From: Candidatus Wolfebacteria bacterium
Lineage (GTDB): Bacteria; Patescibacteriota; Minisyncoccia; UBA6257; UBA9933
Length of the DNA stretch: 64,000 nucleotides
Assembly: GCA_024654025.1 (NCBI GenBank)
Contig: JANLIR010000002.1
Location: 21,885 to 85,884, forward strand
Direction: 5' to 3'
Under the pieces are notes generated by a model. The model was not told where the DNA came from and searched no databases. It saw only the letters and a program-made list of their open reading frames with translations. A program made the translations under genes and the position numbers. The stretch's first letter is position 1, and each line of letters starts with the position of its first letter. Positions 8,118 to 60,732 of this stretch are shown in pieces.

Positions 8118-8675
8118 TTATTTACGGAAAGCGCTTATCAAATAAAACGCCACTATCCCAAAAGCCACTACTACATTTAATGACTCCTTCCGGCCATACA
8201 TCGGAATTTCCAAAATTTTATCCGCTTTTTTCAAAATCGGTTTCGGCAAACCCTTAATTTCATTTCCAACGATTAACGCAATTTTGTTTTTCAGTTTTTT
8301 AGTTTTTGAGTATTTTAGTTTATTATACGGAATTGAATTCTTACTTTGCTCAATCGCGAAAATTTTATATTTTTCCTTTTTGAGCTTATCAATCAATTTT
8401 GAAATTGCTTGTGCTGAGCCCTTCGGTCCTGAGCTCAGGGTCGAAGGACGCGCCGAACCAATTTTCTCCCAAGCTACATATTTTTCCGCTCCCAAAGAAA
8501 CTTTTGTCAGTTGCTGTCTCGGCCGTCCAAAAACATCCGCCGGAGCCGGAGTTATCCCGCATAAATAAAGTTTTTTAATTCCCACCGCATCCGCAGTCCG
8601 GAAAATAGACCCCACATTATGCAAACTCCGAATGTTGTAAAGTAAACCAACCATAATGACTCTATTATAACCCAA
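8118..8675 (-). CDS. SpoU/TrmH-family RNA 2'-O-methyltransferase
   Basis: 185 aa, SPOUT-like (IMVGLLYNIRSLHNVGSIFRTADAVGIKKLYL...LIVGNEIKGL). It overlaps the start of the downstream giant gene by 11 nt. Confidence 0.6.
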   Translation of the reverse strand: MGYNRVIMVGLLYNIRSLHNVGSIFRTADAVGIKKLYLCGITPAPADVFGRPRQQLTKVSLGAEKYVAWEKIGSARPSTLSSGPKGSAQAISKLIDKLKKEKYKIFAIEQSKNSIPYNKLKYSKTKKLKNKIALIVGNEIKGLPKPILKKADKILEIPMYGRKESLNVVVAFGIVAFYLISAFRK

Positions 8676-11600
8676 TTTTCATATACCAATCCTCTCTTCC
8701 ACTTTCATACGAATAAGAACAACTATTACTATAAAATAAATGCTCTCCGCCCGCGTAAAGATCCTCTCTGCTAACAGCGTTTTGCCACTGATTCCTTGAC
8801 CATTGGTCATCATTATTTCCGCCAACATAACTATCAACCTCCAATAACATCCAATATTTTTTGTTGACCGCAAACGCTACGGGAAAAGAAAAATTAAAAA
8901 CTAAATCAGAAGAAGGGCTATAAATATCAGCCAATACCGAACTGGCTAATTGCGAATTCAAATCAGGTCTATCTTTGCCGTCGTCGTTGAATACCGACAA
9001 TTTTAAATTAGCGCCGTCTGTTCCTGTGTTATGCATAACCTTCACAACGGCTTTATCAAACTGAAAATCTTTTTCCGGAACAATACTCTGCGCGCTTTTG
9101 GCAACGCATCCCGAAAAATATTTGTTCCCAAAAGGATAGCTCCAGTTATTGGCTTGAGTTTGAGTTATTTCAAAATTAATATCAGGGTATTTCCAATTCG
9201 CCGTCAAAGCGCTTGAAGTTACTCCGAATTCATCTTTAGCGCGCGCGCTTATTGAAAAATCATCGCCCGACGTAACGGACTTTACTGTACCGGTCGCATA
9301 GACAGCTTGCCACTCGCCAGAATCATTGTATCGAATCTCATAACTTAACAAAGATTCAACAGTATCTGAGTCACTGGCTTTGGACCAATCAATAGCGAGT
9401 TTGGAATTTTGCTTATCAAAAACCAAATTAATAGAGCCTGTCAATTGTGGCGCCTCATGAATAGGTTCCTTGCCAAAATAATATTTCTTTTTATCAACAG
9501 CTACTAATCGAAAAATTTCCGGGCCGCCGTTTGGTATGCTTGAATGCTCAAAAGAATAATAGCCGGCAGTTATGTAATCGCTCGCTGAAAAAGATGTTTG
9601 ATCAGCGGTTTTTTCAAGCGGAACAAAAAATTTATTAATCCCCAAACTGGAAATAGCAAATCTTTCGGTGCCTATTCCCAAACCATTGCATCTTTGGGGA
9701 GTGTCCGCTAAAATCAAGGCCTTAAATCGCGATTCTCCTCCCGTTGACGCACACGGAATATACCGGACGCCGATTACCTTAAAAAAATCTTCCGCCGGCC
9801 ACTTCCAATTATAGCCGTCGCCAAAAGGATTCTCTATGTACGTTTGTTTCGATGGCTCGCTATTTAAATAAAAAACAACGACTTTCCAGCCATCAGGCGC
9901 GTATAAACTCGGCGCGATCGGATATTGGCTATATTTTCCTTCAACCAAATAATCGCTTTGATTTCTAGGGTCTTTATAAAAATAAAGTCCGGAAAGAAAG
10001 CTCGGCGCCGAAACTGTTGTTGTGGCGCTCGCCAAAATCGAGCTACTCGCGTCAACCGCTTCGACTAATAAATCATAATTTCTGCCAACCTCATCAATTA
10101 CAATACTTGCCGACGTGGATGAAGATTGATTTAAAATAGCGCTTGAAGAAGCATCTAATATTCTGTAACCAATCTCTGTGCTTGAAGAATCAATACTAGT
10201 TACAGCTTGCCAACTCAAATCTATCCTCATTGAATCTTTAACAAAAACAGCCGAAAGGCCGTTTAAAATCGAAGAAGAAGTTGCGTCAGAAGTTGATGTT
10301 GATAAAGTTGATGTTGACGCGGTTTGCTCTTGCGAATAAGAATACGAATCGATTATTTGAGTACCCGAAGCGCTGGAAATTAAGTTTTGATTAGAAACCA
10401 AAAACAAAGCTCCTTTAGTATTATTTAAAGCCTGGCTCCACGATAAATCCGCACCCTGACATGGAGTAGCGGCGTGGCAATTCGCGCCGATTTTAAAATA
10501 ACCTTGGCTTAAAATTTTATTTCCATTTTCGAAATTTCTTTTTTTAATGTTTGAGAAATCCTCGTCAGCAGCCAAATACTGAATGGAAAAATTACTTAAA
10601 TCAACATCGCTTTCTTCAGAATTAAAAATTCTCGCGTATTCATTACCTTCATCCGCGCCTTCAGGGTTATAAACAACTTCCGTGATTTTTAACCTTAAAC
10701 TGCTTACATTAGTTGAACTTGCGGTAGAAGTGGAATTTGTAGAAGTTGAATTAGAACTAGACGCCTGATTAGACGCTTGATTAGATACTTGAGAATTTTG
10801 AGTTGTGTTATTAGCAATAACTACTCCGCCTCCGCCATAAACAACCGAATTTTCCGCTTTCGGCGTTCCGCCGACATACGCCGACGTGTGCCAACCAAAA
10901 TCACCGCCATTTCGCTCCATTGTCTTTTTCAAATAATTGTCGCCAGCTAACCAACTAGAACCAGCCAGAACTTCGTCCATTAAATTACATTGTCCATCAA
11001 ACAATCTTAAACCCTCGTCGCTGTTAGAAAGCGCGCCGGTATAAATTAAATCCGCCTTAACGTTGAGCGTGGAATTATCATCCGTTCTTTCCAAAAGGAT
11101 AAATCCGCCGCTAGATAAATTTCTGTTTTTCAATTGAGATAAATTAACTTCTATTTGCCTGCCTTTGTTAATTATTTGCCAATTAGAAAGATCAATATTT
11201 TGATTTGAAATATTTTTCAATTCTACCCATTCGTCGTTAGCGCTGACAGCTGAACCCATCCACGCTACTTCATTTATTAAAACTTTATTCCGTAAAGGAG
11301 TTTGAGAATTATTAAAAAGACATTTAGCAGCTACCTGGTTTGTTAAATTAATTTCCGTTTGAGAACCGCTGGATTTTTTATCGCTATTTTTTTCAACAAG
11401 CGAAGAAGTTGAATTTTTATCCGAATTTTTATCAATGGTTGTTTTTTGGCTGTCGCTTTTCTTTACGTTTAGACTCTTTGAACTACTACTATCATTAGGG
11501 CCAGAATTGCCAACTATTGATAAGTCCTTTTTTAAAGAAGCAATATCCTTTTTCAACGAGCTAATTTCACTTTTTAAAGATTTTATTTGGCTATTTTCAT

Positions 11601-12894
11601 CTCCGGCTGATTTAGATTTAACAGAATTCTTCGTATTTCTACTGCCTGAACTAATTTCATTCTGAACACTCAAATCATTAGTTAAAGAAACTTGGTCCGC
11701 TTGAGTAAAATCGTTTTGATTGCCAAAAAGCCCAGAAAAAAACTCTCCCACCGAAGAAAGAGTATTCTTTACCGTGCCAACAGCGCTGTCCCAAAAAGAA
11801 CCAATCACACCCTTGGCTTTTTCCGTTTCTCCATATAAGGAAACAATTGGCACCGTAGGAATATCTATTTTTGTCGCACTCGGCTGATAATCAACAACCT
11901 GGGCGTTTTCTTGCGCGTCTTTAAAAAAATTATTTATCACCTGAACGCCGGTTAAAACAACTTGTTTTGAGAGAAGATTCCAATAAGCCTGGTGAATGAT
12001 AGGATCGCTTATTAAAAAATTTTCATCTCCATCTGAAGCTTCAAATGGATAAAAATTTCCAAAATTATCGTGCCTGAAATAAATTTTCTTATCCGTGGTA
12101 ATTTCCGATGATTCACTGGTTAATTTTTTATATTTAGGATCATCAATTGTGTCTTTGCTGTAAAAATTTTCATTGGAGTATTTTGCTAATTTAATAAAAC
12201 AATCTTTTGTGTCAAAACAAGAAATACTTCCTTTAATATTCGAATTTGTTAAATTAGAAAAATTAATATTTTGGCTTTCTGCGGCCCATTTTTCATAAGG
12301 ATCAGCATCGTTTACTGCTTGATTTATTTCCGCGTGAGTATCGTTTCTGGTATGAGCCGGAACGCCTAAGTCTTCAATTAGATGCAAAACATAGCCCAAT
12401 GCCTTAAAAGAATTTTCATAAGTGGCGTAATCCGGCTTTACTGCCGCGCTGGTATTTCCCAGTCCGGCAAAAACATACGCCTGAACTGCTTTTGAATAAG
12501 TTTGATCGCCTTGGTAGAGTGAATATCTTCCTTGAAGTTTTTGATCAAACGCCCAATTTACAGAAGAAGTCGCGTCTTTTATTGAAAGGAAGATTTTTGA
12601 AAGAAGGTAAATTGTTTCTTTTGAAATATCTCCTTGTTTTTCTCCAGTCCAGCCCTGATTTAAAACCGGATCATAAAAATGATTAATCCATCTTGGCGGG
12701 GTGTCTTCTTTTATAGATCCGTTAATTATCCAATCCGCTTGCTCTTGAGATATTTTTACTCCGGAATTTTGGTTATAAACTTTTATAATTTCTCTTGTTA
12801 ATTCCTGATGGGTTGGGCTTGGCCAAAAAGCAAGAGACGAATTAAAAGAAAAAATAAATAAAAATAATATAGCCGCAAAGATTTTTTTGATCAT
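8665..12894 (-). CDS. Giant secreted protein with four elements. (1) An N-terminal zinc-dependent phospholipase C / nuclease-S1-P1-like domain. (2) A coiled coil. (3) Two lamin-tail (LTD) domains. (4) Ser/Thr-rich linkers and a C-terminal beta-rich region.
   Basis: Signal peptide MIKKIFAAILFLFIFSFNSSLA. The N-terminal domain carries HFYDPV...GW and YVLHLIEDLGVPAHTRND, resembling the PLC motifs SHFYDP and LHYLGDVNQPMH. The coiled coil is heptad-like (SLKSEISSLKKDIASLKKDLS). There are two LTD signatures, LINEVAWMGSAVSANDEWVELKN and LKITEVVYNPEGADEGNEYARIFN. 1409 aa. Confidence 0.6.
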   Translation of the reverse strand: MIKKIFAAILFLFIFSFNSSLAFWPSPTHQELTREIIKVYNQNSGVKISQEQADWIINGSIKEDTPPRWINHFYDPVLNQGWTGEKQGDISKETIYLLSKIFLSIKDATSSVNWAFDQKLQGRYSLYQGDQTYSKAVQAYVFAGLGNTSAAVKPDYATYENSFKALGYVLHLIEDLGVPAHTRNDTHAEINQAVNDADPYEKWAAESQNINFSNLTNSNIKGSISCFDTKDCFIKLAKYSNENFYSKDTIDDPKYKKLTSESSEITTDKKIYFRHDNFGNFYPFEASDGDENFLISDPIIHQAYWNLLSKQVVLTGVQVINNFFKDAQENAQVVDYQPSATKIDIPTVPIVSLYGETEKAKGVIGSFWDSAVGTVKNTLSSVGEFFSGLFGNQNDFTQADQVSLTNDLSVQNEISSGSRNTKNSVKSKSAGDENSQIKSLKSEISSLKKDIASLKKDLSIVGNSGPNDSSSSKSLNVKKSDSQKTTIDKNSDKNSTSSLVEKNSDKKSSGSQTEINLTNQVAAKCLFNNSQTPLRNKVLINEVAWMGSAVSANDEWVELKNISNQNIDLSNWQIINKGRQIEVNLSQLKNRNLSSGGFILLERTDDNSTLNVKADLIYTGALSNSDEGLRLFDGQCNLMDEVLAGSSWLAGDNYLKKTMERNGGDFGWHTSAYVGGTPKAENSVVYGGGGVVIANNTTQNSQVSNQASNQASSSNSTSTNSTSTASSTNVSSLRLKITEVVYNPEGADEGNEYARIFNSEESDVDLSNFSIQYLAADEDFSNIKKRNFENGNKILSQGYFKIGANCHAATPCQGADLSWSQALNNTKGALFLVSNQNLISSASGTQIIDSYSYSQEQTASTSTLSTSTSDATSSSILNGLSAVFVKDSMRIDLSWQAVTSIDSSSTEIGYRILDASSSAILNQSSSTSASIVIDEVGRNYDLLVEAVDASSSILASATTTVSAPSFLSGLYFYKDPRNQSDYLVEGKYSQYPIAPSLYAPDGWKVVVFYLNSEPSKQTYIENPFGDGYNWKWPAEDFFKVIGVRYIPCASTGGESRFKALILADTPQRCNGLGIGTERFAISSLGINKFFVPLEKTADQTSFSASDYITAGYYSFEHSSIPNGGPEIFRLVAVDKKKYYFGKEPIHEAPQLTGSINLVFDKQNSKLAIDWSKASDSDTVESLLSYEIRYNDSGEWQAVYATGTVKSVTSGDDFSISARAKDEFGVTSSALTANWKYPDINFEITQTQANNWSYPFGNKYFSGCVAKSAQSIVPEKDFQFDKAVVKVMHNTGTDGANLKLSVFNDDGKDRPDLNSQLASSVLADIYSPSSDLVFNFSFPVAFAVNKKYWMLLEVDSYVGGNNDDQWSRNQWQNAVSREDLYAGGEHLFYSNSCSYSYESGREDWYMKIGL

Positions 12895-12897
12895 AAA

Positions 12898-13530
12898 TTA
12901 ATTCTGGTAAAGCTTCCAAATCTGCGCTGGCTTACTGAATTGAAAAATTATTGAGCCTTGATATTTGCCCGCGGGGATTGTGCTAGTTTCCTCTGCGGCT
13001 GTATCATAAAAAGTATGATTTTTTTTCTGAATATATTCATACGCAAACTTTTTTGAATCTCTGTCCCAAAAATCAACTTCTTTCAAATTAGACCATTCAA
13101 TCGGTAATTTATTTACATACTCCCCCAACCATCCTTCACTTTGTAAACGCACTAACCATTTATACGCTCTTCCCGGGCCTTCAATGCCGATGTAATACTT
13201 TGAAGCAAGCAAAATATCGCCTTTCTTTAAAGCATCCAAATACATAAAATAAGTTTCTTCCGGAGTTTTCCCTCCGTACTTATCGTTTTTTAGAGCGTTT
13301 AAATAATCCTGCTCAGCCGAAAAATAAGCGTCGAATCCCCTTTGAGCAAAATAATCATTGTACAAAGTTTTTAAGATCGGATACCCAACAAAAAGTGCGA
13401 TGATAATCGCCAAAAAACTCAAAACAAATTTTCGATACGATTTCTTTTGGACCGGAGACAGCGAAGAATCGGGTGAAGAATTGAAAGAATCATTTGAACC
13501 GCTTTCCGAATCTTGATTTTGGAGTTCCAT
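12898..13530 (-). CDS. Hypothetical membrane-anchored protein (Ser-rich N-terminus, one TM helix), co-operonic partner of the giant PLC/LTD protein
   Basis: 210 aa; TM helix FVLSFLAIIIALFVGYPIL; its stop is 3 nt upstream of the downstream giant ORF's start codon. Confidence 0.45.
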   Translation of the reverse strand: MELQNQDSESGSNDSFNSSPDSSLSPVQKKSYRKFVLSFLAIIIALFVGYPILKTLYNDYFAQRGFDAYFSAEQDYLNALKNDKYGGKTPEETYFMYLDALKKGDILLASKYYIGIEGPGRAYKWLVRLQSEGWLGEYVNKLPIEWSNLKEVDFWDRDSKKFAYEYIQKKNHTFYDTAAEETSTIPAGKYQGSIIFQFSKPAQIWKLYQN

Positions 13531-13749
13531 AAATTTTTTGTGTTAATTATTTATAATTTTAATTTCTAAGACTATATTTTACAATAGGCCAAAAACAAAA
13601 ATTTTGTCTTCTGAAACCCATAAGTAATTTAGATCTAAAATTTCAAAACACAAATTAAATAATATTTTTAACCTCCGGTTTTAAAAACAAAAAAAGAGCT
13701 TAGAGCGCTGGTCTAAAAAAAATAATTCGGCAGTCCGTCATCTGGTGAG

Positions 13750-14029
13750 TTGCCGAATTATTGTTTGCCGAACTATTTGTGATTGGCTTTGCCGAACCAA
13801 CTATCCTAAACTTATCAATAAAGGATTGCCGAACTAGTTGTGGCGAGCCTGCCGAATTATTTATAATATATTTATCTAACTGCTTACAATAAATTTTACA
13901 GAGTCATTGCCGAACTCATCAATAGTAATCTTGCCGAACTAAACCGTACTACTATACCAAACTTTGCCGAACTTTTTGCCGAATTACTTGTGGTAATCCG
14001 TCAGCTGACGGACGGACTCTTGCCGAACT
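13750..14029. repeat. Noncoding array of ~10 direct copies of TTGCCGAA(C/T) with irregular 7-55 bp spacing, plus one inverted copy at 13724-13732 and a 16-bp palindrome TCCGTCAGCTGACGGA
   Basis: Counted directly in the sequence; no ORF of 60 aa or more in 13531-14240. Confidence 0.7.
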
Positions 14030-14240: not shown

Positions 14241-14846
14241 TTAAAAATTCCCTTCAAGCGTTCCTTTTTTATCTATGGAAAAAATCTCTACATAATGCAA
14301 AATGTCTAAATTTTTAAGATCGTCGATAAAATCTTTGGGCAATTTATTCTTGCTAATCCAAACGCTTTTTTGTAGCATAGAAAACCCGAGGGCAATTAAA
14401 TTTTCCCGCAGCCAATTTCTTTTTCGCTTTTCCTCTTCGGGAATATCAAAAATAACTATCTTTAATTTTCCATCTCTGTCACTTTCTTTCGTATAAATTT
14501 TATAAGGTAATTTATTTTCTTTTTTTAACTTTAACTCATTAAGCTTCTTTTCTCCTTTTTTGGTTATCTTCCATTTAGAACGGTTGTTCTCTTTAGTTCT
14601 TTTAACTAAACCTTGTTTTTGAAGATAACCTAAAAGATTATAAAAACGCTGTTGTTCTTTCTTTTTATATTGTTCGTAACTTAATTTTGAAGAATTTTCA
14701 AAAAGTTCTTTATAGAAAGGGCCGTATTTAATCTTTCGCTTCGCTTTCTTATAAGAGTCGTGATAATTCTTTAAAATAATATCAATTAGGTCTATGCTAA
14801 GCTCCCCAAATTTCTTCGCAGCTTCCAAAATAAATTCTGTTTTCAT
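14241..14846 (-). CDS. Small protein with an N-terminal winged-helix domain and a C-terminal Cas2-fold (Cas2/VapD-like) domain
   Basis: ...FYNLLGYLQKQGLVKRTKENNRSKWKITKKGEKKL is wHTH-like. KIVIFDIPEEEKRKRNWLRENLIALGFSMLQKSVWIS matches the Cas2 beta1-alpha1-beta2 pattern (VxxYDI..RRR..L.K.L...G.R.Q.SV). The likely ATG is at 14846; the track ORF starts with TTG at 14855. Confidence 0.5.
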   Translation of the reverse strand: MKTEFILEAAKKFGELSIDLIDIILKNYHDSYKKAKRKIKYGPFYKELFENSSKLSYEQYKKKEQQRFYNLLGYLQKQGLVKRTKENNRSKWKITKKGEKKLNELKLKKENKLPYKIYTKESDRDGKLKIVIFDIPEEEKRKRNWLRENLIALGFSMLQKSVWISKNKLPKDFIDDLKNLDILHYVEIFSIDKKGTLEGNF

Positions 14847-14860
14847 GATGAGCAATTAAT

Positions 14861-50725: not shown

Positions 50726-50730
50726 GAACT

Positions 50731-50754
50731 AAAATCCCCCTTTCGGGGGATTTT
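50731..50754 (-). terminator. Terminator hairpin downstream of the 1651-aa surface-protein gene
   Basis: AAAATCCCCC-TTTC-GGGGGATTTT perfect stem. Confidence 0.55.
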
Positions 50755-50768
50755 AGTTTCCGCAATTT

Positions 50769-53700: not shown

Positions 53701-55724
53701 ATTTCAAACATCTGCCCGCTCGGTTCAATCAACGGCGAAGTGCTTGTCGTTGATTGAGAAGGCGGCAAATGCGCCTCAACTCTATAAAATCCATTGCTCG
53801 GCAAAGCAACGGCATAAGCCACCTGACAAGTGCTGGTTGTGCTGAAAAATGACGGCATCACGCCTCCTGGTCCCATTTGCGTATTTGTTCCTTGAGGCAT
53901 TGCAAACACCGCGATAGTTTTATTTCGTCCGTCAGCGTCGCAACTTGCTTTTGTTGTTATTGTGCCGGAAACTTTTCTGGTCGTCGCGCCTTGCAAAGTC
54001 AAAACTAGCGGACTGGAAGATGAAGTTCCTGATTGAATATTTGCGCCGGGAGCCGGCAAGCGAGCGCCAGTGGGGTCGTATGCCCAAACCATTCCCATAC
54101 CCGCAATATTATCTATTGTGTAAACTCCGGTGCTTGTGCTGAAAGTTATTCCCGAGCTCGCGGCTGTATAAACTTGAGGCCCGCTCATCCCGGCGATAAC
54201 CAAACTCACATTGCCGCTGGAAGTAACCGTAGAAGTACTCACTCCGGCTAAAAGATCAACCCGAACATTAAGAGGTCCGGAAATATCAAAAAAAGTATTT
54301 TGGTTCATATCCGACATCATTCCATCAGAAGTAACTATAGTGATCGGTCCGCCTTGGGCGCCAACAGGAACCGTAGCCGTGATTGAAGTAGCGCCCCAAG
54401 CAGTTGTGGAGGCGGGAATCGGCTGAAGCGGCCCAGTACTTGGGTCAAAACCTCCGGAAAACATCACCGTTCCAGTGTCAGTCCCAAAATTAGTTCCGGC
54501 AATTGTTACGGTATCCCCTACGGCCCCTGAAGTCGGAGAAACCGAACTGATTGTCGGAAGCAGTGCCGTAGAAACAGTGATACTGCTATTGGAATAAGAG
54601 AGAGGAAGATTGTTTGTATCAGTAACTCCCGAAATTGCCAAGCTTATAATCGCCCCTCCGGTTAAACTTAAGTTTTTAATAGTTACGCTATTGCCCATAA
54701 ATTCTATAAACGAACTCCCATAACCGCCGCAACTCAAAGCAGAACCGTTCAAAGTATAATTTGCGCAATTCGTGGCTAAATCTCCACGCAAATTTTTACT
54801 GGCGTTAATTACTATTTTATTAGTAAACGCGTTAACAGACGTAACTGTCGGCGGAGTCGAAGTAGAATTCGGAATAAATTGGACAAAACTACTCGTGGCA
54901 TTGCCGGCCGCGTCGCTCATCGCCAGCCACAAAGAAGAATAAAACGTGCTCCCGATGCTAAAATTAGCAGTCCCGCTAGCGCTAACTCCGCCCGTAGCTA
55001 TTGGCGCGGAACTCGTTGAAGTTGTGTAAACAGAAAGAAGTCCTTGTTCGCCAAGACCACCCGAACCGGTATCGGCCAAATAATAATTTCCACTGGAATA
55101 CGTAAGCGTTGCCTTAGTTGAATCAGGAATTTGCGAATGCGTATCAGCTACTACTTGAGCCGTAGTGGTGGCGCCAATTGTGGGAGAGTTAGCAGATGTA
55201 ACAACACTGCTTGTGCCTGCCGCGATATTTACCGTAACGCCCTGGCGGACAGAAGTAGTGGCTTCAGGATAACCATTGTCAGTCCATGCGTTTGAAGTTC
55301 TTAAAACCACAAAAAATGTTCCGGTTGCCGGCGTGGTTGTGGCGGCCGCGATGTTTATCCTTGTTGTGGTGGCTATATTAACGCTTGAAGTCGCTAACAA
55401 AACATCGGCTGGGTCAAATTGGAAATCAGAATTCGCGTCTTTATATACGCCTACCCAGTCAAAACTGGACGAAGCAACCGCGGTGCTTGTCGCGCTCGTT
55501 GACGTAGAAATCAAAACCGTCGTGCTTGATAAGGTCTCGCCAGCGGTAATGGATAATTCAAGTCGTAAAACAGGAATCATTGATCCTGCTTTTACCGTGC
55601 TTGTCGCGCTGACCAGCGCCGTTGAAGTGCCGGTTACCGCGGCCTGCGCGTTATTTAATAAACCGACCGTAAAAAAACTGGCGACTAAAAAAATCGCCCC
55701 GACAAAAAAGAATTTTCTAAACAT
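50769..55724 (-). CDS. Giant (1651 aa) Thr/Ser/Gly-rich cell-surface protein with Cna-B-like domains, an Fn3 domain, a PG_binding_1 domain and a C-terminal coiled coil
   Basis: Signal peptide; repeated GYVKDGSGNAI...-type beta-sandwich modules. Fn3 is at ...LSWTASTGATKYDVYRLSG.... The peptidoglycan-binding domain is ...LMQGITDNEVKSLQEFLAKD...GYFGTATRRAVQRFQEKYGI. The terminal heptad coiled coil is QLIQQLRTLIQEIEAKITKLLAQLQELKK. Confidence 0.6.
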   Translation of the reverse strand: MFRKFFFVGAIFLVASFFTVGLLNNAQAAVTGTSTALVSATSTVKAGSMIPVLRLELSITAGETLSSTTVLISTSTSATSTAVASSSFDWVGVYKDANSDFQFDPADVLLATSSVNIATTTRINIAAATTTPATGTFFVVLRTSNAWTDNGYPEATTSVRQGVTVNIAAGTSSVVTSANSPTIGATTTAQVVADTHSQIPDSTKATLTYSSGNYYLADTGSGGLGEQGLLSVYTTSTSSAPIATGGVSASGTANFSIGSTFYSSLWLAMSDAAGNATSSFVQFIPNSTSTPPTVTSVNAFTNKIVINASKNLRGDLATNCANYTLNGSALSCGGYGSSFIEFMGNSVTIKNLSLTGGAIISLAISGVTDTNNLPLSYSNSSITVSTALLPTISSVSPTSGAVGDTVTIAGTNFGTDTGTVMFSGGFDPSTGPLQPIPASTTAWGATSITATVPVGAQGGPITIVTSDGMMSDMNQNTFFDISGPLNVRVDLLAGVSTSTVTSSGNVSLVIAGMSGPQVYTAASSGITFSTSTGVYTIDNIAGMGMVWAYDPTGARLPAPGANIQSGTSSSSPLVLTLQGATTRKVSGTITTKASCDADGRNKTIAVFAMPQGTNTQMGPGGVMPSFFSTTSTCQVAYAVALPSNGFYRVEAHLPPSQSTTSTSPLIEPSGQMFEITDSTTTITSNLTFTAADRKIYGRIVDGAGSALSASKYNEMWVTAYQPIANGKGSATMPNSTGYFSLYASQGTYKIGVGGPGMPGSVEKEIVVVSSSAFALDASTPVITIKLEPPTSSISGYVKDGSGNAIANVDLNAWCSGGPGGGSAFTDSQGYYKMYVSPCSNYRVGGFSKEYGQLSEQTNVVVTNSTSPTVNFTLSSANFITISGTVSKNGSGVSQVDTWVTQGEFGPGMGWAKTDSAGAFTFKTTTGLTNLYLHAAVMGQGEIYKGQLNSGNAVTASTTVTVAVNTATLEIRLKPKNTFSNVFIGAHSTLGGGFTNTTSSVGSDYDAYSIQIPFSGSTTYTIEGGIPGFGPITPTTTAITASTSIIIDLSATDFYVVSGTVSGSSTDAFVWAASPAGGGGSRVANDGTFSMKLRGGNYDIGVGKPGFLGTRLANQSISTTTAGLSLSLTQNSQSITGYVKYNGTAIEGARVWAEQTGSTGWAGAMSEGDGSFTLNVGSGLWKVQAIADGYNTANPISVTAPSAGLTVNLQAVSFDAKQTSQSFTPTQGGVVQTDDVKLNIPQGALGSDTTQTQVTVQNTMDVPDKNNVKVFGTKGKKIEASYSSGANQGQQITNLSQNVDMEIVLTKAELVSAGITSLVDANKIVIGYWDTTADNWTEISTTPVVAPTGATWDTLTSLTLKGTTSHFSTFAPIISTTSTAPATPTSLSATAGNGQVALSWTASTGATKYDVYRLSGSDYPYLGQTTVTSYTDTGLTNGTAYSYKVSALDSNDNESAATTDAVSATPAAPAAVAGSGLPISILSSGGGGGFTPSITATSSATSVTSTISQLTGVAQTSLPTGLIKKLTLRLMQGITDNEVKSLQEFLAKDSDVYPEGIISGYFGTATRRAVQRFQEKYGIAKSGNLGYGDVGPATRAKINQLLAGSSANVPQLPEQASSKAQLIQQLRTLIQEIEAKITKLLAQLQELKKATQ

Positions 55725-55928
55725 TTTTTTAAAAACCGCGAACTGAAAATTATTTGCTTATAATTTTACAGATCTACGACTCTTTATTATAAAAAACAAG
55801 ACCTTTTTTATTTTAAAAAAACAAAAATTGGGAGATAGTTTCTCTTAGTTTAATTATACAATATTTAAGGAAATGGAAATTGTGGATAACTATTTAGATA
55901 CGGACAATCTGCATTGGTCCGTGAATTC

Positions 55929-55952
55929 AAAAACCCCCTCTCGGGGGTTTTT
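55929..55952 (-). terminator. Bidirectional-looking rho-independent terminator after the 1084-aa gene
   Basis: AAAAACCCCCTCTCGGGGGTTTTT. Confidence 0.7.
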
Positions 55953-56000
55953 GAATTGGTCGGTTATGCGCTACCGACAAACTCCAATCAGTTATTCAGG

Positions 56001-59000
56001 TTAGTTCAAGAAACTACTGGCTTGTCCGTTGATTGGCGTCGCAATTGACGGATCTATCGATGAAATATCGTTAACTCCATCATTCCAAGTAGCGGTCGAT
56101 ACCACAATCTGGTAAGACCTCGTAATTGGAGTAGTGGCATTTGATGCCAAGCTAGTTGCAGACCCTAAGTCGGCTTTCACGATCAAGTACAAGCTCTGTC
56201 CGGCAGGAACTGTCCAACCGGTTGTGCTATTCAACACAACTGACGTAGCAGTAGTAGATGACAATGTCGTAGAAGCGAGCAATGTCGACTGCCTATCGCT
56301 GCCATAAAGGCTGATAGTGACGATAGTCGAAGATTGCTGTAATGATCCTACCTGTTTCATTGTCACCGTCTTAATGATTGTGTCGTATCCAGCGCCAGCA
56401 GCAAAAGTAAACTGTCCAACAACTGAACCGTCCGCAAGACCGGCGGCTGCCGTAAATGTCGGGCCAGAAGCCACGCCCAAGGTAGTCCTATAAAGCGTTA
56501 CTGCCTGGCTGTCATAAGCAGCTGACGAAGTTGTGGAAGTAGAAAGAGCGATGCTGGTTGTGGTAGCTCCAGAAGCGTTGTTGTAAGTAAACTGCGCCAA
56601 TCTAAAGTTATGAGCAGCGCCTGAAGAAGCGGCTGCCGCAAAACCTACAGTATCGGCAACCACGCTCAATGACTTGTAAGAGCTGGCCGGTACAACAAAT
56701 CCTGTCAACGGGAAGCTGATTGCGCTACCAGCGCTTTCAGTACCATTAGACAATAAAGTTGCGCCGTCGTACAACTTGAAATTAGTCCAAGACCTATCCG
56801 TTGAAGTAGTGGTTGTTGCCGCGCTCTTCATATCGTTTATAGCGACATTAGTCAAAGCGCCGTCTCCACTGCTATTGGCGGTAAATCTGAACTTAGCCAC
56901 TGTAATACCATTTACTCCCATTCCGACAAACGCGGCATTCGGAGTAGCGGAATCAATAGCTCCGGTCACAGTACCACCCGTTGTTATGCTGACCGTTTGG
57001 CCAGCCACACCGGTAATACTAACTGCGTTTCCAACATTATTGGTCGCGTTAACGCTAGCCAAAGTAACCAACGAACCGCTGTTCGTGGTTGCGCTGTTAG
57101 AAATGTTTGAGTAAACATCAACAATCGCAATCGCGCCCGGCGCGATTGAAACAGCCGAGCCAGTATTGAAGGTGTAAGACGTATTGCTGGCAACAGTCGG
57201 TTGAGTATTGCCTGCTTGAACGCCGTTAACCTTAACCGTCAAAGCTGTCATCCAGTCGGAAAGCGTTCCGCTGGCAGTAGATGTTACGGTAACTCCTGTT
57301 AAACTAACACTGTTAACTTGACCCGCGGTCAAATTAAACGACGCGATTCTTGCCTGGCTTGCTCCAGCTGTAACTATCGGCGTACCCAAAGCATAGTTCA
57401 AAGACGATGCTAATTGAGTAGTGGAAAGCAACACCGACAAAGGATACCCGCTAACCGCTGAAACCGTAACTGTCGCGTAGCTGGTGTAGCTTTGCGCGGT
57501 ACCGCTGGCAATAGCTACTGTCATTGTTCCAGTCGCGCTAGAACCGACATCAGCGTAAACATTCAATGTTCTGGTTTGATTAGCAGAAATAATGTAATTC
57601 AAGCTGCCTGAGCCAATCGCAAATGTAGTGGCTCCGGTAGTTTGGGTTGTCCCAAGCTGAACGCCCTGATCATCAACAACTCTTACGTTGCTGTAGTTAT
57701 TGGCGCCGGCGCTCATTGTCATGTTCAACTGGTTTATCTTTACGCTGTCTCCGGAAGCCAATAAATCTAACTTGGCCAACACTTGGTTGGTGTTTCCAGC
57801 AACAACATTGGAAGCCGGCGAAGCAGCATTTCTGCTCATAACCAACCCTCCATTGTTAATGGTTGCGGTGTAGAAACTTATCGGCCAAGTGGCATACGTA
57901 GCTCCTATTCCTACGCTGTAAGTCGCGTCAGTAGCAGTAATATCAGCTGATTGCTGAAGTGAAAACGCGAAAGTTCTGTTAACTCCGCCAGTTATATCAA
58001 CATAAACCTGCAAAACAACAGTTTGCCCTGACGACAAAGACAACGGAGCGCTTGACAAATCAAATGTCAAAACATTGTCAGAGCCAAGCTGGGCAATAGC
58101 ATTGCCAACTTGAGTTCCTGCTTGCATCAATTTGATGTTTTGCAAGTAGCTCGGAGTAACGCTTCCGACATTAAGTAATCGCAAACTATTAACTTTAACC
58201 GGTTGATTGCCGACCTGTACCGTAAACTGGGCAGCCAAATAATTGGTCTGTCCGGCATTTACAGTAACAGCGCCTGTGCTGACCGCGGAAATCGTTAAAG
58301 TAGCGAGGTTGGTAACGCTTACCAAAGCAAACTGACTGCCGCTTACCGGGAGATTACCCGAAACAGCGCCTGTTCCGCTAAGAGTTACGTCAGCCGCAGC
58401 CGCGACGCCAAACGACATCACGTGGCTGGCGCTTGAAGTAGCGGTGGTCGCGTCCAAAGAAACAGTAATGGTCTTGGTTGTACCGGCAGGAACAATAAAG
58501 AGGCCATTAGCATTGTTAAAGTTAACTTTGCCAAGAGAAGTTCCCAAATTGGAAGCCAATCTGGTAACGCCGTCGTAAAGATACATATTGTTTATGTCCG
58601 CATCTTGCGACAAGCCGCTTCTTGTTATTTTTAAACCGGTAACCGTAACCGCAGCTGATCCGGCAGAGAAGTTAAGTTTCAAAACCGGAGTATTTACAGC
58701 GCCGATAGCCAAATTGGCTGACGCTGGATTATCAGAAGCTAAACTAACAGCAACCGCTCCAGTGACTGGAGTGGTGCCTGTGCCCGTTCCAGTGCCTGTG
58801 CCTGTTCCAGTTCCAGTGCCGGTTCCGGTTGAAGCCAAAGAGTTAATATAACTCCTTGTTATCGGACCGAAGTAACCGACAGCCGGAGAAATTGCGTTCG
58901 CTGCCTGATATTTCGCCACAGCGGCTTTGGTCCTGGATCCGAAATAAGTAGTTTCGTTTCCAACTGAACCAGCTCCGCTGGCGGAAACTGTAAATCCTTG

Positions 59001-59255
59001 AGCATTCAAGAATTGCTGAAGGGACTTAACATCTTCTCCAGTTGACCCCACAGTGAGGCTGCGGGTAAAGGAATAAGATGTCGTGCCCTGTACTTGCCCC
59101 AATTGCGCTTTTGCCGCGTTAAGCTGAGCCATAAGCGCTGCGATTTGGGCTTCCAAATCCGTAGTGCTAGTCTGAGCAAAAGCAACCGGCGCCATCATAT
59201 AGACAACGGTTGTTACGGAAACTGCAATGGACGCAAGTTTTCGTCCTATATTCAT
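56001..59255 (-). CDS. Giant (1084 aa) surface protein with four parts. (1) Signal peptide. (2) Coiled coil and a PG_binding_1 domain. (3) A (Gly-Thr)n linker. (4) Multiple Ig-like beta-sandwich repeats.
   Basis: N-terminal signal peptide; coiled coil DLEAQIAALMAQLNAAKAQL; PG-binding ...GEDVKSLQQFLNAQGF...TKAAVAKYQAANAI...; the linker is GTGTGTGTGTGTGTGTGT; the remainder is Thr/Ser/Ala/Val-rich. Confidence 0.6.
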   Translation of the reverse strand: MNIGRKLASIAVSVTTVVYMMAPVAFAQTSTTDLEAQIAALMAQLNAAKAQLGQVQGTTSYSFTRSLTVGSTGEDVKSLQQFLNAQGFTVSASGAGSVGNETTYFGSRTKAAVAKYQAANAISPAVGYFGPITRSYINSLASTGTGTGTGTGTGTGTGTGTTPVTGAVAVSLASDNPASANLAIGAVNTPVLKLNFSAGSAAVTVTGLKITRSGLSQDADINNMYLYDGVTRLASNLGTSLGKVNFNNANGLFIVPAGTTKTITVSLDATTATSSASHVMSFGVAAAADVTLSGTGAVSGNLPVSGSQFALVSVTNLATLTISAVSTGAVTVNAGQTNYLAAQFTVQVGNQPVKVNSLRLLNVGSVTPSYLQNIKLMQAGTQVGNAIAQLGSDNVLTFDLSSAPLSLSSGQTVVLQVYVDITGGVNRTFAFSLQQSADITATDATYSVGIGATYATWPISFYTATINNGGLVMSRNAASPASNVVAGNTNQVLAKLDLLASGDSVKINQLNMTMSAGANNYSNVRVVDDQGVQLGTTQTTGATTFAIGSGSLNYIISANQTRTLNVYADVGSSATGTMTVAIASGTAQSYTSYATVTVSAVSGYPLSVLLSTTQLASSLNYALGTPIVTAGASQARIASFNLTAGQVNSVSLTGVTVTSTASGTLSDWMTALTVKVNGVQAGNTQPTVASNTSYTFNTGSAVSIAPGAIAIVDVYSNISNSATTNSGSLVTLASVNATNNVGNAVSITGVAGQTVSITTGGTVTGAIDSATPNAAFVGMGVNGITVAKFRFTANSSGDGALTNVAINDMKSAATTTTSTDRSWTNFKLYDGATLLSNGTESAGSAISFPLTGFVVPASSYKSLSVVADTVGFAAAASSGAAHNFRLAQFTYNNASGATTTSIALSTSTTSSAAYDSQAVTLYRTTLGVASGPTFTAAAGLADGSVVGQFTFAAGAGYDTIIKTVTMKQVGSLQQSSTIVTISLYGSDRQSTLLASTTLSSTTATSVVLNSTTGWTVPAGQSLYLIVKADLGSATSLASNATTPITRSYQIVVSTATWNDGVNDISSIDPSIATPINGQASSFLN

Positions 59256-59788
59256 TTTTATGTTTTCGTTTTATGCCCGTTTTAAAAATAAAAGCTAAAA
59301 ATAAAAATTTTATTTTAAAAAGGGTTTTTTGTTTTTAATCTAAATTAATTTTCAGAAAAGCTATTGCCTTTCAATCGACCCACTGTCTGACCGTGTGAGG
59401 TTAGGCGGCAGTCTGACAAAACAATAACTCTGGTAGCTTGTTAATGAGGATTTATTAAAATAATTATAAAAAATCCTCGCGTGAGCGAGGCATCCATGCC
59501 GACTATGTCGGCAACCAAAATAACTTAAAAACTAAAATACTTAACGCTTCTTAATTTTACGTTTTTTAGTATTTTAGTATTTTCGTATTTTCGTAGCGCT
59601 TATAAAGCGCTGTGGTCTAGCCTCACTCTAAACCCCCTTTTCTTAATTCAATTATAAATCACTCCCAAATCTTGTCAATCTTACTTAACGGTCTTGACGG
59701 CTTTGATAGAGATAACGACATAAAATCATTGTTGTTTCAGCTCCCAAAGAAATATACTTGTCGTTGGTTGTGGGTTGTAAATTGTTAG

Positions 59789-60499
59789 TTATTTAGCCAC
59801 ATAATAACTGCCCGGACCAGTACTTCCGATTCTAGAAACCAAGCCCTGATCGCAAAGTCGCAAAAGATAAAATCTAACAGTTCTTTCGCTTATATCAGGA
59901 AAAGAGGCTAATAATTCTTTAGTGGTTGTTTTACCTAATTCTTGTACTTTTTTAAATAAACGATTTTGCCGATCTTCGTCGTCCTGAGGTTGCCGAAAGA
60001 TTGCCGAACTCTTTTCGCTCTTGTCCTGAGCTTGCCGAAGGATTGCCGAACTCCTCTCATCTTGCCGAACTATTGCCGAACTACTTGTGGTGAGCTTTGC
60101 CGAACTAACTTGTCCTGAGTTTATCGAAGGATTATTTATATCAAATAAAGGCGCTGGAACTTTTGCAAAAATTCTGTCTATTGCCGAACTTTTTTCTTTC
60201 TCTTGCCGAATTGCCGAATTCCATTGCCGAACTGCTTCTTTTAAATTATCTATTTCCCTAAAAAGTATAAAAGCGTTAATTTTGCCGATCTCTTCCACTA
60301 CTTCTGCCAAACGAATAAGTTGTTCCAATTTTTCCAAGTTATCCACAACTCCAAGATTGGCAATAATATCCACAGAGGCGTTTTCCAGCTCAATTTTAAG
60401 CTTTGGCTGTTTTATAATATTGGCGCACCTAAAAACCGCCCAAGCAATCTCGAAAGACCTATTTTTAATAAATTCCACATCCCCTGTGATCATAGCCAT
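59789..60499 (-). CDS. Putative DNA-binding protein: N-terminal helical domain, low-complexity 'SSAI' repeat linker, C-terminal winged helix
   Basis: The C-terminus TTKELLASFPDISERTVRFYLLRLCDQGLVSRIGSTGPGSYYV is DeoR/MarR-like wHTH. The central region is encoded by the TTGCCGAAC repeat array, so the ORF could alternatively be a read-through of a DNA-level repeat. Confidence 0.4.
   Translation of the reverse strand: MAMITGDVEFIKNRSFEIAWAVFRCANIIKQPKLKIELENASVDIIANLGVVDNLEKLEQLIRLAEVVEEIGKINAFILFREIDNLKEAVRQWNSAIRQEKEKSSAIDRIFAKVPAPLFDINNPSINSGQVSSAKLTTSSSAIVRQDERSSAILRQAQDKSEKSSAIFRQPQDDEDRQNRLFKKVQELGKTTTKELLASFPDISERTVRFYLLRLCDQGLVSRIGSTGPGSYYVAK
59990..60235. repeat. Second array of ~11 copies of TTGCCGAA(C/T), embedded within ORF 59789..60499
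   Basis: Counted directly; copies occur in all three reading frames relative to the ORF; TTGCCGATC variants lie at 59966 and 60273. Confidence 0.7.
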
Positions 60500-60585
60500 T
60501 ATTTAACAGGCAAATAATACTATGTCAATCCCTTTGTCGAACTTTTGACAAATTAAACAAAAACAATAGAATTAGATATTAAAAT

Positions 60586-60669
60586 GCCCGGGTGGCGGAA
60601 TTGGCAGACGCGCAGGACTCAAAATCCTGTAATCGCAAGGTTGTGTGGGTTCAACTCCCACCCCGGGCA
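60586..60669 (+). tRNA. tRNA-Leu (anticodon CAA)
   Basis: Acceptor stem GCCCGGG/CCCGGGC with discriminator A; anticodon stem CAGGA/TCCTG around loop CTCAAAA; long variable arm (class II); T-arm GTGGGTTCAACTCCCAC. Confidence 0.85.
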
Positions 60670-60732
60670 CAAAAAAAGGGAAGGCTTTCGCCTCCCCATT
60701 GACCGAATAGTTACCTCCGCCGCGCCGCATCC

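What the first reader, a model, noticed from the sequence alone, without database searches (positions are those of the whole stretch)
59960..60300. Second TTGCCGAAC array, this time inside a wHTH-protein ORF next to tRNA-Leu
The same 9-mer recurs about 11 times, 46 kb from the first array, on the same strand. Here the copies are embedded in a 236-aa minus-strand ORF and land in all three reading frames, so selection appears to act on the DNA motif rather than the peptide repeat. Non-repeat segments also match array 1: CTTGTGGTGAGCTTTGCCGAACT versus CTTGTGGTAATCC...TTGCCGAACT. The ORF product ends in a DeoR/MarR-like winged helix. Two readings are possible. In the first, a DNA-binding protein's own gene carries an array of its candidate binding site. 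In the second, the central part of the 'gene' is not coding and this is a second copy of a repeat element. The locus sits about 90 bp from a tRNA gene, which is a classic integration hotspot.
Basis: partly seen in the sequence, partly recalled or inferred. Interest (0 to 1): 0.6.

Follow-up and report, generated by a model that had tools for sequence, protein, structure and literature searches.

The report
Regulator gene carrying its own operator array
A small DNA-binding protein gene of a Wolfebacteria (candidate phyla radiation) genome carries about a dozen copies of a short DNA motif inside the part that encodes its floppy linker. The same motif sits on the gene's promoter in relatives, so the gene most likely doubles as a landing pad for its own product.

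Summary
TTGCCGAAC (at most 1 mismatch) occurs 13 times at 59966-60290 and 9 times at 13750-14028 on the same strand, and at chance level elsewhere. Array 2 lies in a genuine 236-aa gene (59789-60499, minus). Its product has an Avd/23S-IVP-like four-helix bundle, a disordered linker and a C-terminal DeoR-like winged helix.

The constraint acts on DNA, not on the peptide:
- TTCGGCAA is the top linker 8-mer in 22 of 22 orthologs, down to 36% protein identity.
- Ser-Ala is encoded TCGGCA in 91 of 123 cases and Arg-Gln is encoded CGGCAA in 60 of 78, both against codon bias.
- Across 18 relatives the motif density is 7.1/kb in the gene, 2.9/kb upstream and 0.13/kb elsewhere.
- In most orthologs one copy, in either orientation, lies between or beside the gene's -35 and -10 boxes.

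Array 1 is non-coding and conserved in close relatives, upstream of a giant surface-protein operon.

My best reading is that the winged-helix protein binds this motif. That would give autoregulation plus control of two neighbouring giant surface-protein operons. Binding itself is inferred, not shown.

The "non-coding repeat element" and "tRNA integration hotspot" readings are rejected. The 12 linker copies use two reading frames, not three.

I rate it a new variant of a known kind.

The parts
59789..60499 (-). Gene for a 236-aa regulator. It has an N-terminal four-helix bundle (aa 2-112), a disordered linker (aa about 115-170) and a C-terminal winged helix (aa 171-235). Translation probably starts leaderless at the second ATG (M3, 60491-60493).
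   Evidence: ORF. Identical NCBI protein NUV83_00425 from Candidatus Wolfebacteria, and 61 homologs. Alignment. AlphaFold2 model. Fold matches. Near-identical strains are annotated from M3.
59966..60290 (+). Array 2: 13 copies of TTGCCGAAC (at most 1 mismatch), which read GTTCGGCAA on the coding strand. Sub-array A is 59966-60105 (8 copies, three pairs spaced 11 bp). Sub-array B is 60181-60232 (4 copies). One outlier sits at 60282.
60073..60105 (+). Composite unit TTGCCGAAC-TACTTGTGGTGAGCT-TTGCCGAAC: two cores 24 bp apart with a conserved spacer. It encodes SAKLTTSSSA.
   Evidence: The same 32-bp unit occurs in orthologs down to 36% identity and in the non-coding array-1 homolog L296.
60534..60542 (+). 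Promoter-proximal variant site TTGTCGAAC, lying between the divergent -35 boxes of tRNA-Leu and of the regulator gene. The orthologous position in L126 and L133 has the consensus TTCGGCAA.
60500..60528 (-). Putative promoter of the regulator gene: -35 TTGACA (60523-60528), 17-nt spacer, -10 TAAATA (60500-60505).
   Evidence: Read from the sequence and aligned with ortholog promoters. It was not picked up by the consensus scan.
60586..60670 (+). tRNA-Leu(CAA), with a promoter-like site at 60545-60572.
13726..14028 (+). Array 1: 9 direct copies at 13750-14028, a degenerate copy at about 13850, and one inverted degenerate copy (TTCGGCAG, 13726-13733) next to a T-run. It is non-coding and lies about 220-500 bp upstream of the 210-aa / 1409-aa operon.
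   Evidence: Conserved in L294 (4 copies), L295 (9) and L296 (10). Motif columns are 74/80 identical to L296, against 119/198 for spacer columns.
56001..59255 (-). Gene for a 1084-aa PG_binding_1 surface protein, always found downstream of the regulator gene. A perfect sigma-70-type promoter (TTGACA-16-TATAAT) lies at 59651-59678.
8665..13530 (-). Operon downstream of array 1: the 210-aa protein (12898-13530) and the 1409-aa LTD-domain protein (8665-12894).
14241..14855 (-). Gene for a PaaX_M/Cas2-like winged-helix protein immediately upstream of array 1. It is the alternative candidate reader of the motif.

Best explanation
The 236-aa protein is a transcription regulator of a large uncharacterised Patescibacteria family. 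An Avd/23S-rRNA-IVP-like four-helix bundle, probably an oligomerisation hub, is tethered by a disordered linker to a DeoR-like winged helix. I propose that the winged helix recognises the asymmetric site TTGCCGAAYTa, whose core is TTGCCGAA.

One site on or beside the gene's own -35/-10 boxes would give autorepression. The DNA that encodes the disordered linker tolerates almost any peptide. It has been filled with 4-13 further sites, often in pairs spaced 8, 11, 13 or 24 bp. The gene body then acts as a multivalent landing pad that an oligomer with flexible arms can bridge to the promoter site, by looping or as a roadblock.

This array also lies about 290-620 bp upstream of the promoter of the adjacent giant surface-protein gene. 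A second, non-coding array lies upstream of another giant surface-protein operon. The protein would therefore control both operons, which are adjacent in related genomes.

Shown: DNA-level conservation of the motif, its restriction to this gene and locus, its promoter position, the domain architecture, and the synteny. Inferred: that this protein is the binder, the sign of regulation, oligomerisation, and looping.
For: 1. The motif cluster is far beyond chance.
2. TTCGGCAA is the most frequent linker 8-mer and is present in 22 of 22 non-redundant orthologs. The extended consensus is tARTTCGGCAA.
3. Codon choice shows DNA-level constraint. Ser-Ala is TCGGCA in 91/123 cases and Arg-Gln is CGGCAA in 60/78. 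Background codon frequencies are TCG 0.13, GCA 0.13 and CGG 0.14.
4. A copy lies between -35 TTGACA and -10, or abuts the -35, in most orthologs, in either orientation.
5. Density is 7.07/kb in the gene, 2.94/kb in the 700 bp upstream and 0.133/kb in 165 kb of flanks.
6. The recognition-helix region SERT[IV]R is invariant wherever the motif is kept.
7. Distant members (28% identity and beyond) still carry TCGGCAA cores in the gene. These include antisense pairs that encode the conserved LPNGCRM.
8. The non-coding array 1 is conserved in relatives, with motif columns more conserved than spacers.
10. The regulator gene followed by a giant surface-protein gene is conserved synteny.
Against:
- A PaaX-like winged-helix gene is in the same neighbourhood in many genomes.
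- In this window the promoter-proximal copy is a variant (TTGTCGAAC), and nothing sits in the -35/-10 spacer.
- The downstream giant gene has a perfect consensus promoter about 290 bp from the array, an awkward distance for simple repression.
- The N-domain has no sequence-level link to PF05635. That this family forms pentamers is recalled from the literature, not tested here.
- The conserved 16-bp spacer of the 32-bp composite unit hints at a larger site or a second factor.
- The equivalent of array 1 is absent from more distant relatives.
Confidence: 0.55

Rival explanations
1. The motif is a real protein-binding DNA site, but another factor reads it. The main candidate is the PaaX_M/Cas2-like winged-helix protein encoded in the same conserved neighbourhood. 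On this view the regulator gene is a target, and its linker is just a permissive place to hold sites.
For: The PaaX-like gene lies directly upstream of array 1. It lies near the regulator gene in L001, L123, L125, L137 and L151.
Against: The motif tracks the regulator gene itself, both promoter and body, across the whole family. This includes loci where no PaaX-like gene was found within the fetched flanks (L124, L126, L129, L138, L139) and distant members (L297, L298). PaaX-like genes have their own distinct flanking palindromes.
Confidence: 0.15
2. The arrays are assembly sites for a chromosome-level nucleoprotein complex rather than for transcription control. Possibilities are centromere-like sites (as in ParR-parC or omega-protein heptad arrays), iteron-type origin or control sites (as in lambda O/ori or SPP1 G38P oriL/oriR), or domain boundaries flanking a 41-kb cell-surface gene region.
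For: - There are many direct, non-palindromic repeats, with a terminal inverted copy in array 1.
- One array is inside the binder's own gene and one is distant, as in SPP1 (recalled from the literature).
- AT-rich segments lie in the middle of both arrays.
- The arrays bracket a surface-glycan and giant-protein region.
Against: - GC skew shows no switch at either array.
- No ParA, ParM, Rep or initiator genes were found in the window or in relatives' flanks.
- In relatives the two blocks are adjacent, so 'bracketing' is specific to this lineage.
- The promoter-overlapping copy fits an operator.
Confidence: 0.1
3. The repeats make the regulator gene a contingency locus. Recombination or slippage between copies lying in different reading frames would frameshift the gene and switch expression of the giant surface proteins.
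For: - Copies lie in two frames, at spacings not divisible by three (8, 11, 13).
- The linker varies in length and copy number between close relatives.
- The neighbouring genes encode surface proteins.
Against: - It does not explain why the same 8-mer is kept across the family, or why it sits on the promoter and in non-coding array 1.
- All recovered orthologs are in frame.
- Near-identical strains differ only by point changes next to the core.
Confidence: 0.05
4. The motif works at RNA level, for example as binding sites for an RNA-binding protein on the mRNA and on an array-1 transcript, in the manner of a CsrB-like sponge.
For: All linker copies and array-1 copies are in the sense orientation of the minus-strand genes. 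The array-1 sense RNA folds somewhat better than shuffles (z -3.07).
Against: - Promoter copies lie upstream of the likely transcription start and occur in both orientations.
- Upstream clusters mix orientations.
- Array-2 RNA is less structured than shuffles (z +2.15).
- Rfam finds no match apart from the tRNA.
Confidence: 0.05
5. The motif is incidental. It is either a peptide repeat (SSAIxRQ) under protein-level selection or a neutral product of slippage and concerted evolution in a low-complexity linker. A related version holds that this is a repeat or mobile element inserted next to a tRNA.
For: Some copies come from recent in-frame 42-bp duplications. Low-complexity linkers do expand by slippage.
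Against: - Codon usage is fixed on TCGGCA and CGGCAA against the genome's bias.
- The same core reads as SA, RQ, FG, LPN or CRM depending on frame and strand.
- The core is invariant between lineages while the flanks diverge.
- Copies exist in non-coding DNA.
- Synteny around the tRNA is conserved and there are no mobility genes.
Confidence: 0.03

Closest known systems
Phage lambda O protein and ori-lambda (also P22 gene 18, and SPP1 G38P with oriL/oriR)
   Same: An array of binding sites for a DNA-binding protein lies inside that protein's own gene, in the segment encoding the flexible linker between its two domains. In SPP1 a second array lies tens of kb away. These comparisons are recalled from the literature.
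   Different: Here the context is a core chromosome, not a phage. There is no replication-initiator homology, no GC-skew switch and no replication partner genes. A copy overlaps the promoter, which points to transcription control. The sites are 8-11 bp and asymmetric, not 19-bp iterons.
ParR-parC of plasmid R1, and omega protein heptad arrays of pSM19035
   Same: Seven to ten or more short non-palindromic repeats, direct with occasional inverted copies, are arranged around a promoter. They are bound cooperatively by a small protein that autoregulates. Recalled from the literature.
   Different: Those binders are ribbon-helix-helix proteins with adjacent ParM or ParA partners and non-coding repeats. 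Here the binder candidate is a winged helix, no partner ATPase was found, and most repeats are inside coding sequence.
OmpR/PhoB- and SARP-type winged-helix activators on tandem direct repeats
   Same: Both involve direct repeats of a 7-9-bp core at 11-bp phasing. Three pairs here are spaced 11 bp, and 12 such pairs occur across orthologs. SARP-LAL regulators bind heptameric direct repeats (title of PMC5930380, listed). That their heptamer is CGGCAAG at 11-bp spacing is recalled, not read from the paper.
   Different: The winged helix here is DeoR/HxlR-like, not Trans_reg_C. There is no receiver or BTA domain. Spacings of 8, 13 and 24 bp are equally common.
Avd / 23S rRNA intervening-sequence protein family (PF05635; PDB 4dwl, 8ub7, 2gsc, 2rld)
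   Different: There is no detectable sequence similarity. No reverse transcriptase or diversity-generating retroelement (DGR) context was found. I found no precedent for fusion to a winged helix through a disordered linker.
Intragenic auxiliary operators and parS sites inside the binder's operon (lac O2 in lacZ, gal OI in galE, parS in spo0J)
   Same: Binding sites embedded in coding sequence cooperate with a promoter site or nucleate a complex. Recalled from the literature.
   Different: Those are one or two sites. Here there are 4-13 sites in two or three frames within the regulator's own coding sequence, conserved across a large family.

Membership tests
DeoR-family transcription regulators | HTH_DeoR (PF08220) DNA-binding domain | tested here: inconclusive
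   In this protein the match has E 0.0018 and 18.4 bits, below the 21-bit cut-off. It matches 23 of 24 family members, best E 4.3e-7. The fold is a generic winged helix.
DeoR-family transcription regulators | N-terminal HTH followed by a C-terminal DeoRC sugar-phosphate sensor domain | tested here: not met
   The HTH is C-terminal (aa 177-224), there is no DeoRC hit, and the N-terminus is a four-helix bundle.
Avd / 23S rRNA IVP four-helix-bundle family (PF05635) | Match to the PF05635 sequence profile | tested here: not met
   No Pfam hit at E up to 1 in any of 24 members. hhalign against a PF05635 protein from L124 gave probability 0.4%. The PDB profile search did not retrieve 2gsc or 4dwl.
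Avd / 23S rRNA IVP four-helix-bundle family (PF05635) | Up-down four-helix bundle superimposable on Avd or Xcc0516 | tested here: met
Avd / 23S rRNA IVP four-helix-bundle family (PF05635) | Homopentameric assembly | not testable with these tools
   Only monomer prediction is available. The pentamer property of Avd and Xcc0516 is recalled from the literature.
Iteron-type replication origin inside an initiator gene (lambda O/ori type) | Array of direct repeats within the binder's coding sequence | tested here: met
Iteron-type replication origin inside an initiator gene (lambda O/ori type) | Replication-initiator protein family, phage or plasmid context, strand-composition switch | tested here: not met
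   No Rep or O-like domains. The context is a core chromosome. GC skew is negative throughout the window.
Partition centromere with autoregulating centromere-binding protein (ParR-parC, omega) | Adjacent ParA or ParM NTPase partner, and a ribbon-helix-helix or ParB binder | tested here: not met
   No such genes were found in the window or in the fetched flanks of relatives. The binder candidate is a winged helix.
Mobile or integrated element at a tRNA gene | Integrase or transposase, a duplicated att site or tRNA 3' end, and variable presence among relatives | tested here: not met
   No mobility genes. The gene order tRNA-Leu / regulator / HSP20 / PrsW is conserved. The arrays are not terminal repeats of an insert, since the two blocks are adjacent in L001 and L125.
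CRISPR, or a regular tandem repeat | Constant repeat-plus-spacer period | tested here: not met
   Spacings are irregular: 8, 11, 13, 19, 22, 24, 31 and 58-60 bp.
Structured non-coding RNA | Rfam match or a fold more stable than shuffled sequence | tested here: not met
   Only the tRNA matches Rfam. Array 2 has z +2.15. Array 1 has z -3.07, mainly from the terminal inverted copy.

The most novel reading that the evidence does not exclude
A large Patescibacteria-wide family of regulators (659 clusters at E <= 1e-10) may consist of an Avd-like, possibly pentameric, hub displaying several winged helices on long disordered tethers. In this reading the DNA encoding those tethers has been co-opted as the protein's own multivalent binding platform. 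It would be a dual-coding 'self-operator' array, kept in whichever reading frame or strand it lands on. It would act with satellite arrays as an enhancer-, insulator- or nucleation-type element controlling giant cell-surface protein operons in these reduced genomes.
Probability: 0.25. Interest if true: 0.75.

Novelty: new variant of a known kind. Interest (0 to 1): 0.6.

Why it matters
Almost nothing is known about gene regulation in candidate-phyla-radiation bacteria, which cannot be grown alone. This finding gives a ready-made, testable regulator-operator pair: a defined protein, a defined 8-11-bp site, and two defined target loci that encode the giant surface proteins and sit beside a surface-glycan cluster. 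These products are thought to matter for the episymbiotic lifestyle.

It is also a clean natural example of dual coding. A protein-coding segment's amino-acid sequence appears free to drift because it is disordered, while its nucleotide sequence is held as an array of binding sites. That is relevant to how overlapping codes evolve, and to interpreting 'low-complexity linkers' in gene annotation.

Tried and rejected
1. Collection scans for TTGCCGAA x3 with 2-30-nt gaps, in genome contigs and viral contigs. These were mostly coding repeats with periods of 12-36 bp from many phyla. They say nothing about the taxonomic spread of these arrays.

2. Replication origin. Perfect DnaA-box-like TTATCCACA sequences occur near both arrays (14192, 60339). 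However, GC skew shows no switch. The 60339 box lies in conserved coding sequence (VVDN). The window as a whole shows only a marginal excess.

3. Array 1 as a pseudogene copy of the regulator. tblastn finds no remnant of the N- or C-terminal domain anywhere else in the window.

4. Sequence-level link of the N-domain to PF05635 or to solved structures. None was found.

5. Diversity-generating retroelement context, suggested by the Avd-like fold. No reverse transcriptase was found in the window or in relatives' flanks.

6. Literature searches for the motif, for Xcc0516 and for Wolfebacteria regulators found nothing relevant.

7. Covariation between the recognition helix and the motif. Both are invariant, so no covariation test is possible.

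8. The single 'CCTGAGC..CGAAGG'-like hit at 1803-1827 is a different hairpin (TTCGACAG) between rpsD and rpoA, not a motif copy.
Full report
OBSERVATION

The window comes from a Candidatus Wolfebacteria (Patescibacteria / candidate phyla radiation) genome. The 236-aa ORF product is identical to NCBI protein NUV83_00425 on a 248.7-kb contig.

TTGCCGAAC with at most one mismatch occurs 49 times, against 18.7 +/- 4.3 expected. Thirteen copies lie at 59966-60290 and nine at 13750-14028, all on the + strand. The remaining 27 are scattered singletons. The exact-core singletons I checked against the ORF list all fall inside ORFs.

Array 2 lies inside ORF 59789-60499 on the minus strand. tRNA-Leu(CAA) is 86 bp beyond the ORF start.

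The two arrays are related beyond the 9-mer. blastn aligns 68 bp at 78% identity (E 1e-8) plus three further segments.

By my frame count from the coordinates, the 12 linker copies use two frames: six read xRQ and six read SSA[I/K]. One search agrees for the 11 exact 8-mer cores (5 and 6, none in the third frame). Only the one-mismatch copy at 60282 is in the third frame, and it falls in the folded N-terminal domain.

THE GENE IS REAL AND IS TRANSLATED THROUGH THE REPEATS

There are 61 homologs at E <= 1e-3 in the word-indexed search. A full HMM search finds 2,300 cluster representatives, of which 659 have E <= 1e-10. Of the 150 representatives listed, nearly all are about 190-400 aa and most match both the N- and C-terminal parts of the profile.

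The alignment shows three parts:
- a well-conserved N-terminal region of about 110 aa;
- a well-conserved C-terminal region of about 60 aa, with invariant S204-E-R-T and R209;
- a hypervariable linker, which is nevertheless always in frame.

AlphaFold2 gives a confident four-helix bundle (aa 2-112, pLDDT about 95), a disordered linker (119-170, pLDDT below 50) and a winged helix (171-235, pLDDT about 89).

The C-domain is a generic winged helix. HTH_DeoR matches 23 of 24 members, best E 4e-7, and many MarR, ArsR, BlaI and Fur-type structures match the model.

The four best four-helix-bundle matches to the N-domain all belong to the Avd / 23S-rRNA-IVP family:

Foldseek also ranks 2gsc first. 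There is no sequence-level link to that family.

THE CONSTRAINT IS ON THE NUCLEOTIDE SEQUENCE

I fetched DNA for orthologs at 28-82% protein identity.

- In 22 non-redundant orthologs, TTCGGCAA (coding strand) is the single most frequent linker 8-mer. It is present in all 22, with 1-13 copies. An unbiased 7-mer count of each gene plus flanks puts TCGGCAA/TGCCGAA first in every one, tied first in two.
- The extended consensus is tARTTCGGCAA, which is TTGCCGAAYTa on the other strand.
- Ser-Ala dipeptides are encoded TCGGCA in 91 of 123 cases. Arg-Gln is encoded CGGCAA in 60 of 78. The genome's codon frequencies are TCG 0.13, GCA 0.13 and CGG 0.14, and TCGGCA is not among the eight commonest codon pairs of the 79 Ser-Ala dipeptides in ten large genes of the window.
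- The same core is read as SA, RQ or FG depending on frame.
- In distant members, antisense copies encode LPN, CRM and AEL. For example, TTGCCGAATGGTTGCCGAATG encodes the conserved LPNGCRM at the start of the winged helix.
- Near-identical strains differ only at the base flanking the core, giving L, V or F before RQ.
- Over 18 relatives the exact 8-mer density is 7.07/kb in the gene, 2.94/kb in the 700 bp upstream and 0.133/kb in the remaining 165 kb.

OPERATOR-LIKE PLACEMENT

In most orthologs one copy lies between a consensus -35 TTGACA and the -10 box. An example is GGATTGACACATTGCCGAACTGCCGTATACAAT. In others a copy abuts the -35, and either orientation occurs. Several orthologs have a further mixed-orientation cluster 180-680 bp upstream.

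In this window the corresponding site is the variant TTGTCGAAC (60534-60542). It lies between the divergent -35 boxes of the tRNA-Leu promoter (60545-60572, 11 of 12 consensus positions) and of the regulator gene (-35 at 60523-60528, -10 at 60500-60505, read). That geometry predicts a leaderless mRNA starting at the second ATG. This matches how near-identical proteins are annotated.

Copies upstream of the transcription start, in both orientations, argue for recognition of DNA rather than RNA. Array-2 RNA is also less structured than shuffled sequence (z +2.15), and nothing but the tRNA matches Rfam.

ARRAY ARCHITECTURE

Spacings peak at 8, 11, 13 and 24 bp.
- The 8-bp pair TTCGGCAATTCGGCAA encodes NSAIRQ.
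- A 32-bp composite, TTCGGCAA-RRYTCACYACAAGTAG-TTCGGCAA, encodes SAKLTTSSSA. It recurs in orthologs down to 36% identity and also in a non-coding array-1 homolog. The spacer of this unit is therefore also held at DNA level, and I cannot explain why.

ARRAY 1

Array 1 is non-coding and has no remnant of the regulator's domains. It sits between a PaaX_M/Cas2-like winged-helix gene and a 210-aa / 1409-aa LTD-protein operon.

Close relatives have 4, 9 and 10 copies in the same spacer and orientation. Each array ends with an inverted copy followed by a T-run. Motif columns are 74/80 identical to L296 against 119/198 for spacer columns. For L295 the figures are 55/80 against 83/198.

More distant relatives lack the array in that spacer.

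CONTEXT

The gene order is conserved across Wolfebacteria: PrsW, HSP20, (tRNA-Leu), regulator, roughly 1,090-aa PG-binding surface protein, (PaaX-like), p210, and a roughly 1,400-aa LTD protein. A distant family member is likewise followed by a protein of more than 1,100 aa.

In L001 and L125 the two blocks abut. In this window they are 41 kb apart. The interval holds nonulosonic-acid and glycan biosynthesis genes, glycosyltransferases, a flippase, Wzy_C, a second giant PG-binding protein, a class-II aminoacyl-tRNA synthetase, NDK and transketolase. There is no integrase, transposase or ParA.

GC skew is uniformly negative.

The tRNA adjacency is therefore conserved synteny, not an integration scar, and the arrays are not the ends of an insert.

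A perfect TTGACA-16-TATAAT promoter (59651-59678) precedes the 1084-aa gene, about 290 bp beyond the array.

MECHANISM (INFERRED)

I propose that the winged helix binds TTGCCGAAYTa. The promoter copy would give autorepression. The linker-coding DNA, free of peptide constraint, would hold a cluster of extra sites.

If the Avd-like bundle oligomerises, several winged helices on 50-150-aa tethers could engage irregularly spaced sites. (That its structural relatives are pentamers is recalled from the literature and was not tested.) They could also bridge the sites to the promoter, by looping or as a roadblock.

Both arrays lie a few hundred bp upstream of giant surface-protein operons. This suggests a small regulon that was ancestrally a single locus.

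Rivals are listed separately with their evidence: a different reader such as the PaaX-like protein, a centromere- or iteron-type assembly, a contingency locus, an RNA-level role, and an incidental repeat.

COMPARISON AND NOVELTY

The closest architectures are:
- lambda O/ori and SPP1 G38P with oriL/oriR (sites inside the binder's own linker-coding DNA);
- ParR-parC and omega heptad arrays (many short direct repeats around an autoregulated promoter);
- PhoB- and SARP-type tandem repeats at 11-bp phasing;
- intragenic auxiliary operators.

The defining features of each were tested where possible, and the finding is not a member of any of them (see the membership table). Literature searches found no description of the motif or of this protein family.

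I rate it a new variant of a known kind: autoregulation through sites in the regulator's own gene. Three things make it unusual. There are many sites, they are indifferent to reading frame and strand, and they are conserved across a large uncultivated lineage.

The main weakness is that binding by this protein is inferred only from co-conservation.

Noticed in passing
window 14192-14240; L294 about 9520-9575, L295 about 9330-9385, L296 about 4820-4870; L001 15440-15480 and 16215-16255: A long perfect palindrome centred on CGATCG lies just 3' of the PaaX-like gene. Its arms change in a fully compensatory way between relatives. It is followed by an invariant (A/G)TGTGGATAA, which is a perfect DnaA-box sequence on the other strand. 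In L001 copies of such a palindrome flank the PaaX-like gene on both sides. Similar CGATCG-centred palindromes precede the regulator gene in L123 and L138.
   Followed up: partly
window 59256-59788: The 1084-aa surface-protein gene has a perfect consensus promoter (59651-59678) and therefore a leader of about 390 nt. The leader contains four tandem GTATTTT(A/C) octamers (about 59567-59597) and a hairpin, gtagcgcttataaagcgctg. A terminator-like hairpin lies at 59475-59490.
   Followed up: no
window 1803-1827 (minus strand): A hairpin, AATCCTTCGACAGGCTCAGGATT, lies between rpsD and rpoA. It resembles the CCTGAGCTTGCCGAAGG sub-unit of array 2. Related 'CTGAGCTTGCCGAAGG' 23-35-bp tandem units turned up in unrelated genomes, for example L033 (a Parcubacteria genome, inside a coding region), L015, L038 and L065.
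   Followed up: partly
window 14856-56000 compared with L001 and L125: The regulator / giant-protein block and the PaaX-like / p210 / LTD block are adjacent in related genomes. Here they are separated by about 41 kb of surface-glycan (NeuB, CTP-transferase, glycosyltransferases, flippase, Wzy_C) and housekeeping genes. This is a lineage-specific rearrangement or insertion within a cell-surface locus.
   Followed up: partly
window 50000-60000: The 10 kb holding the genes for the giant surface proteins (1651 aa and 1084 aa) has a GC content of 0.42-0.48, against about 0.34-0.41 for most of the window. GC skew there is close to zero.
   Followed up: no
L001 9800-9950, 14990-15160, 16500-16740: That related genome carries a different family of short hairpin repeats (GTCATTCCGG...CCGGAATGAC and variants) scattered in its intergenic regions. 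These are absent from this window.
   Followed up: no
window 60087-60506 (+): A 139-aa ORF runs antisense to the N-terminal half of the regulator gene. It looks like a shadow ORF with a low-complexity, hydrophobic sequence and no family match was sought.
   Followed up: no
window 31651-33135 and 39361-40851: Two paralogous B12-binding radical-SAM enzymes lie within the surface-glycan cluster. Next to them are NeuB, aminotransferases and GHMP kinases, which suggests an unusual modified nonulosonic or heptose-type sugar pathway.
   Followed up: no
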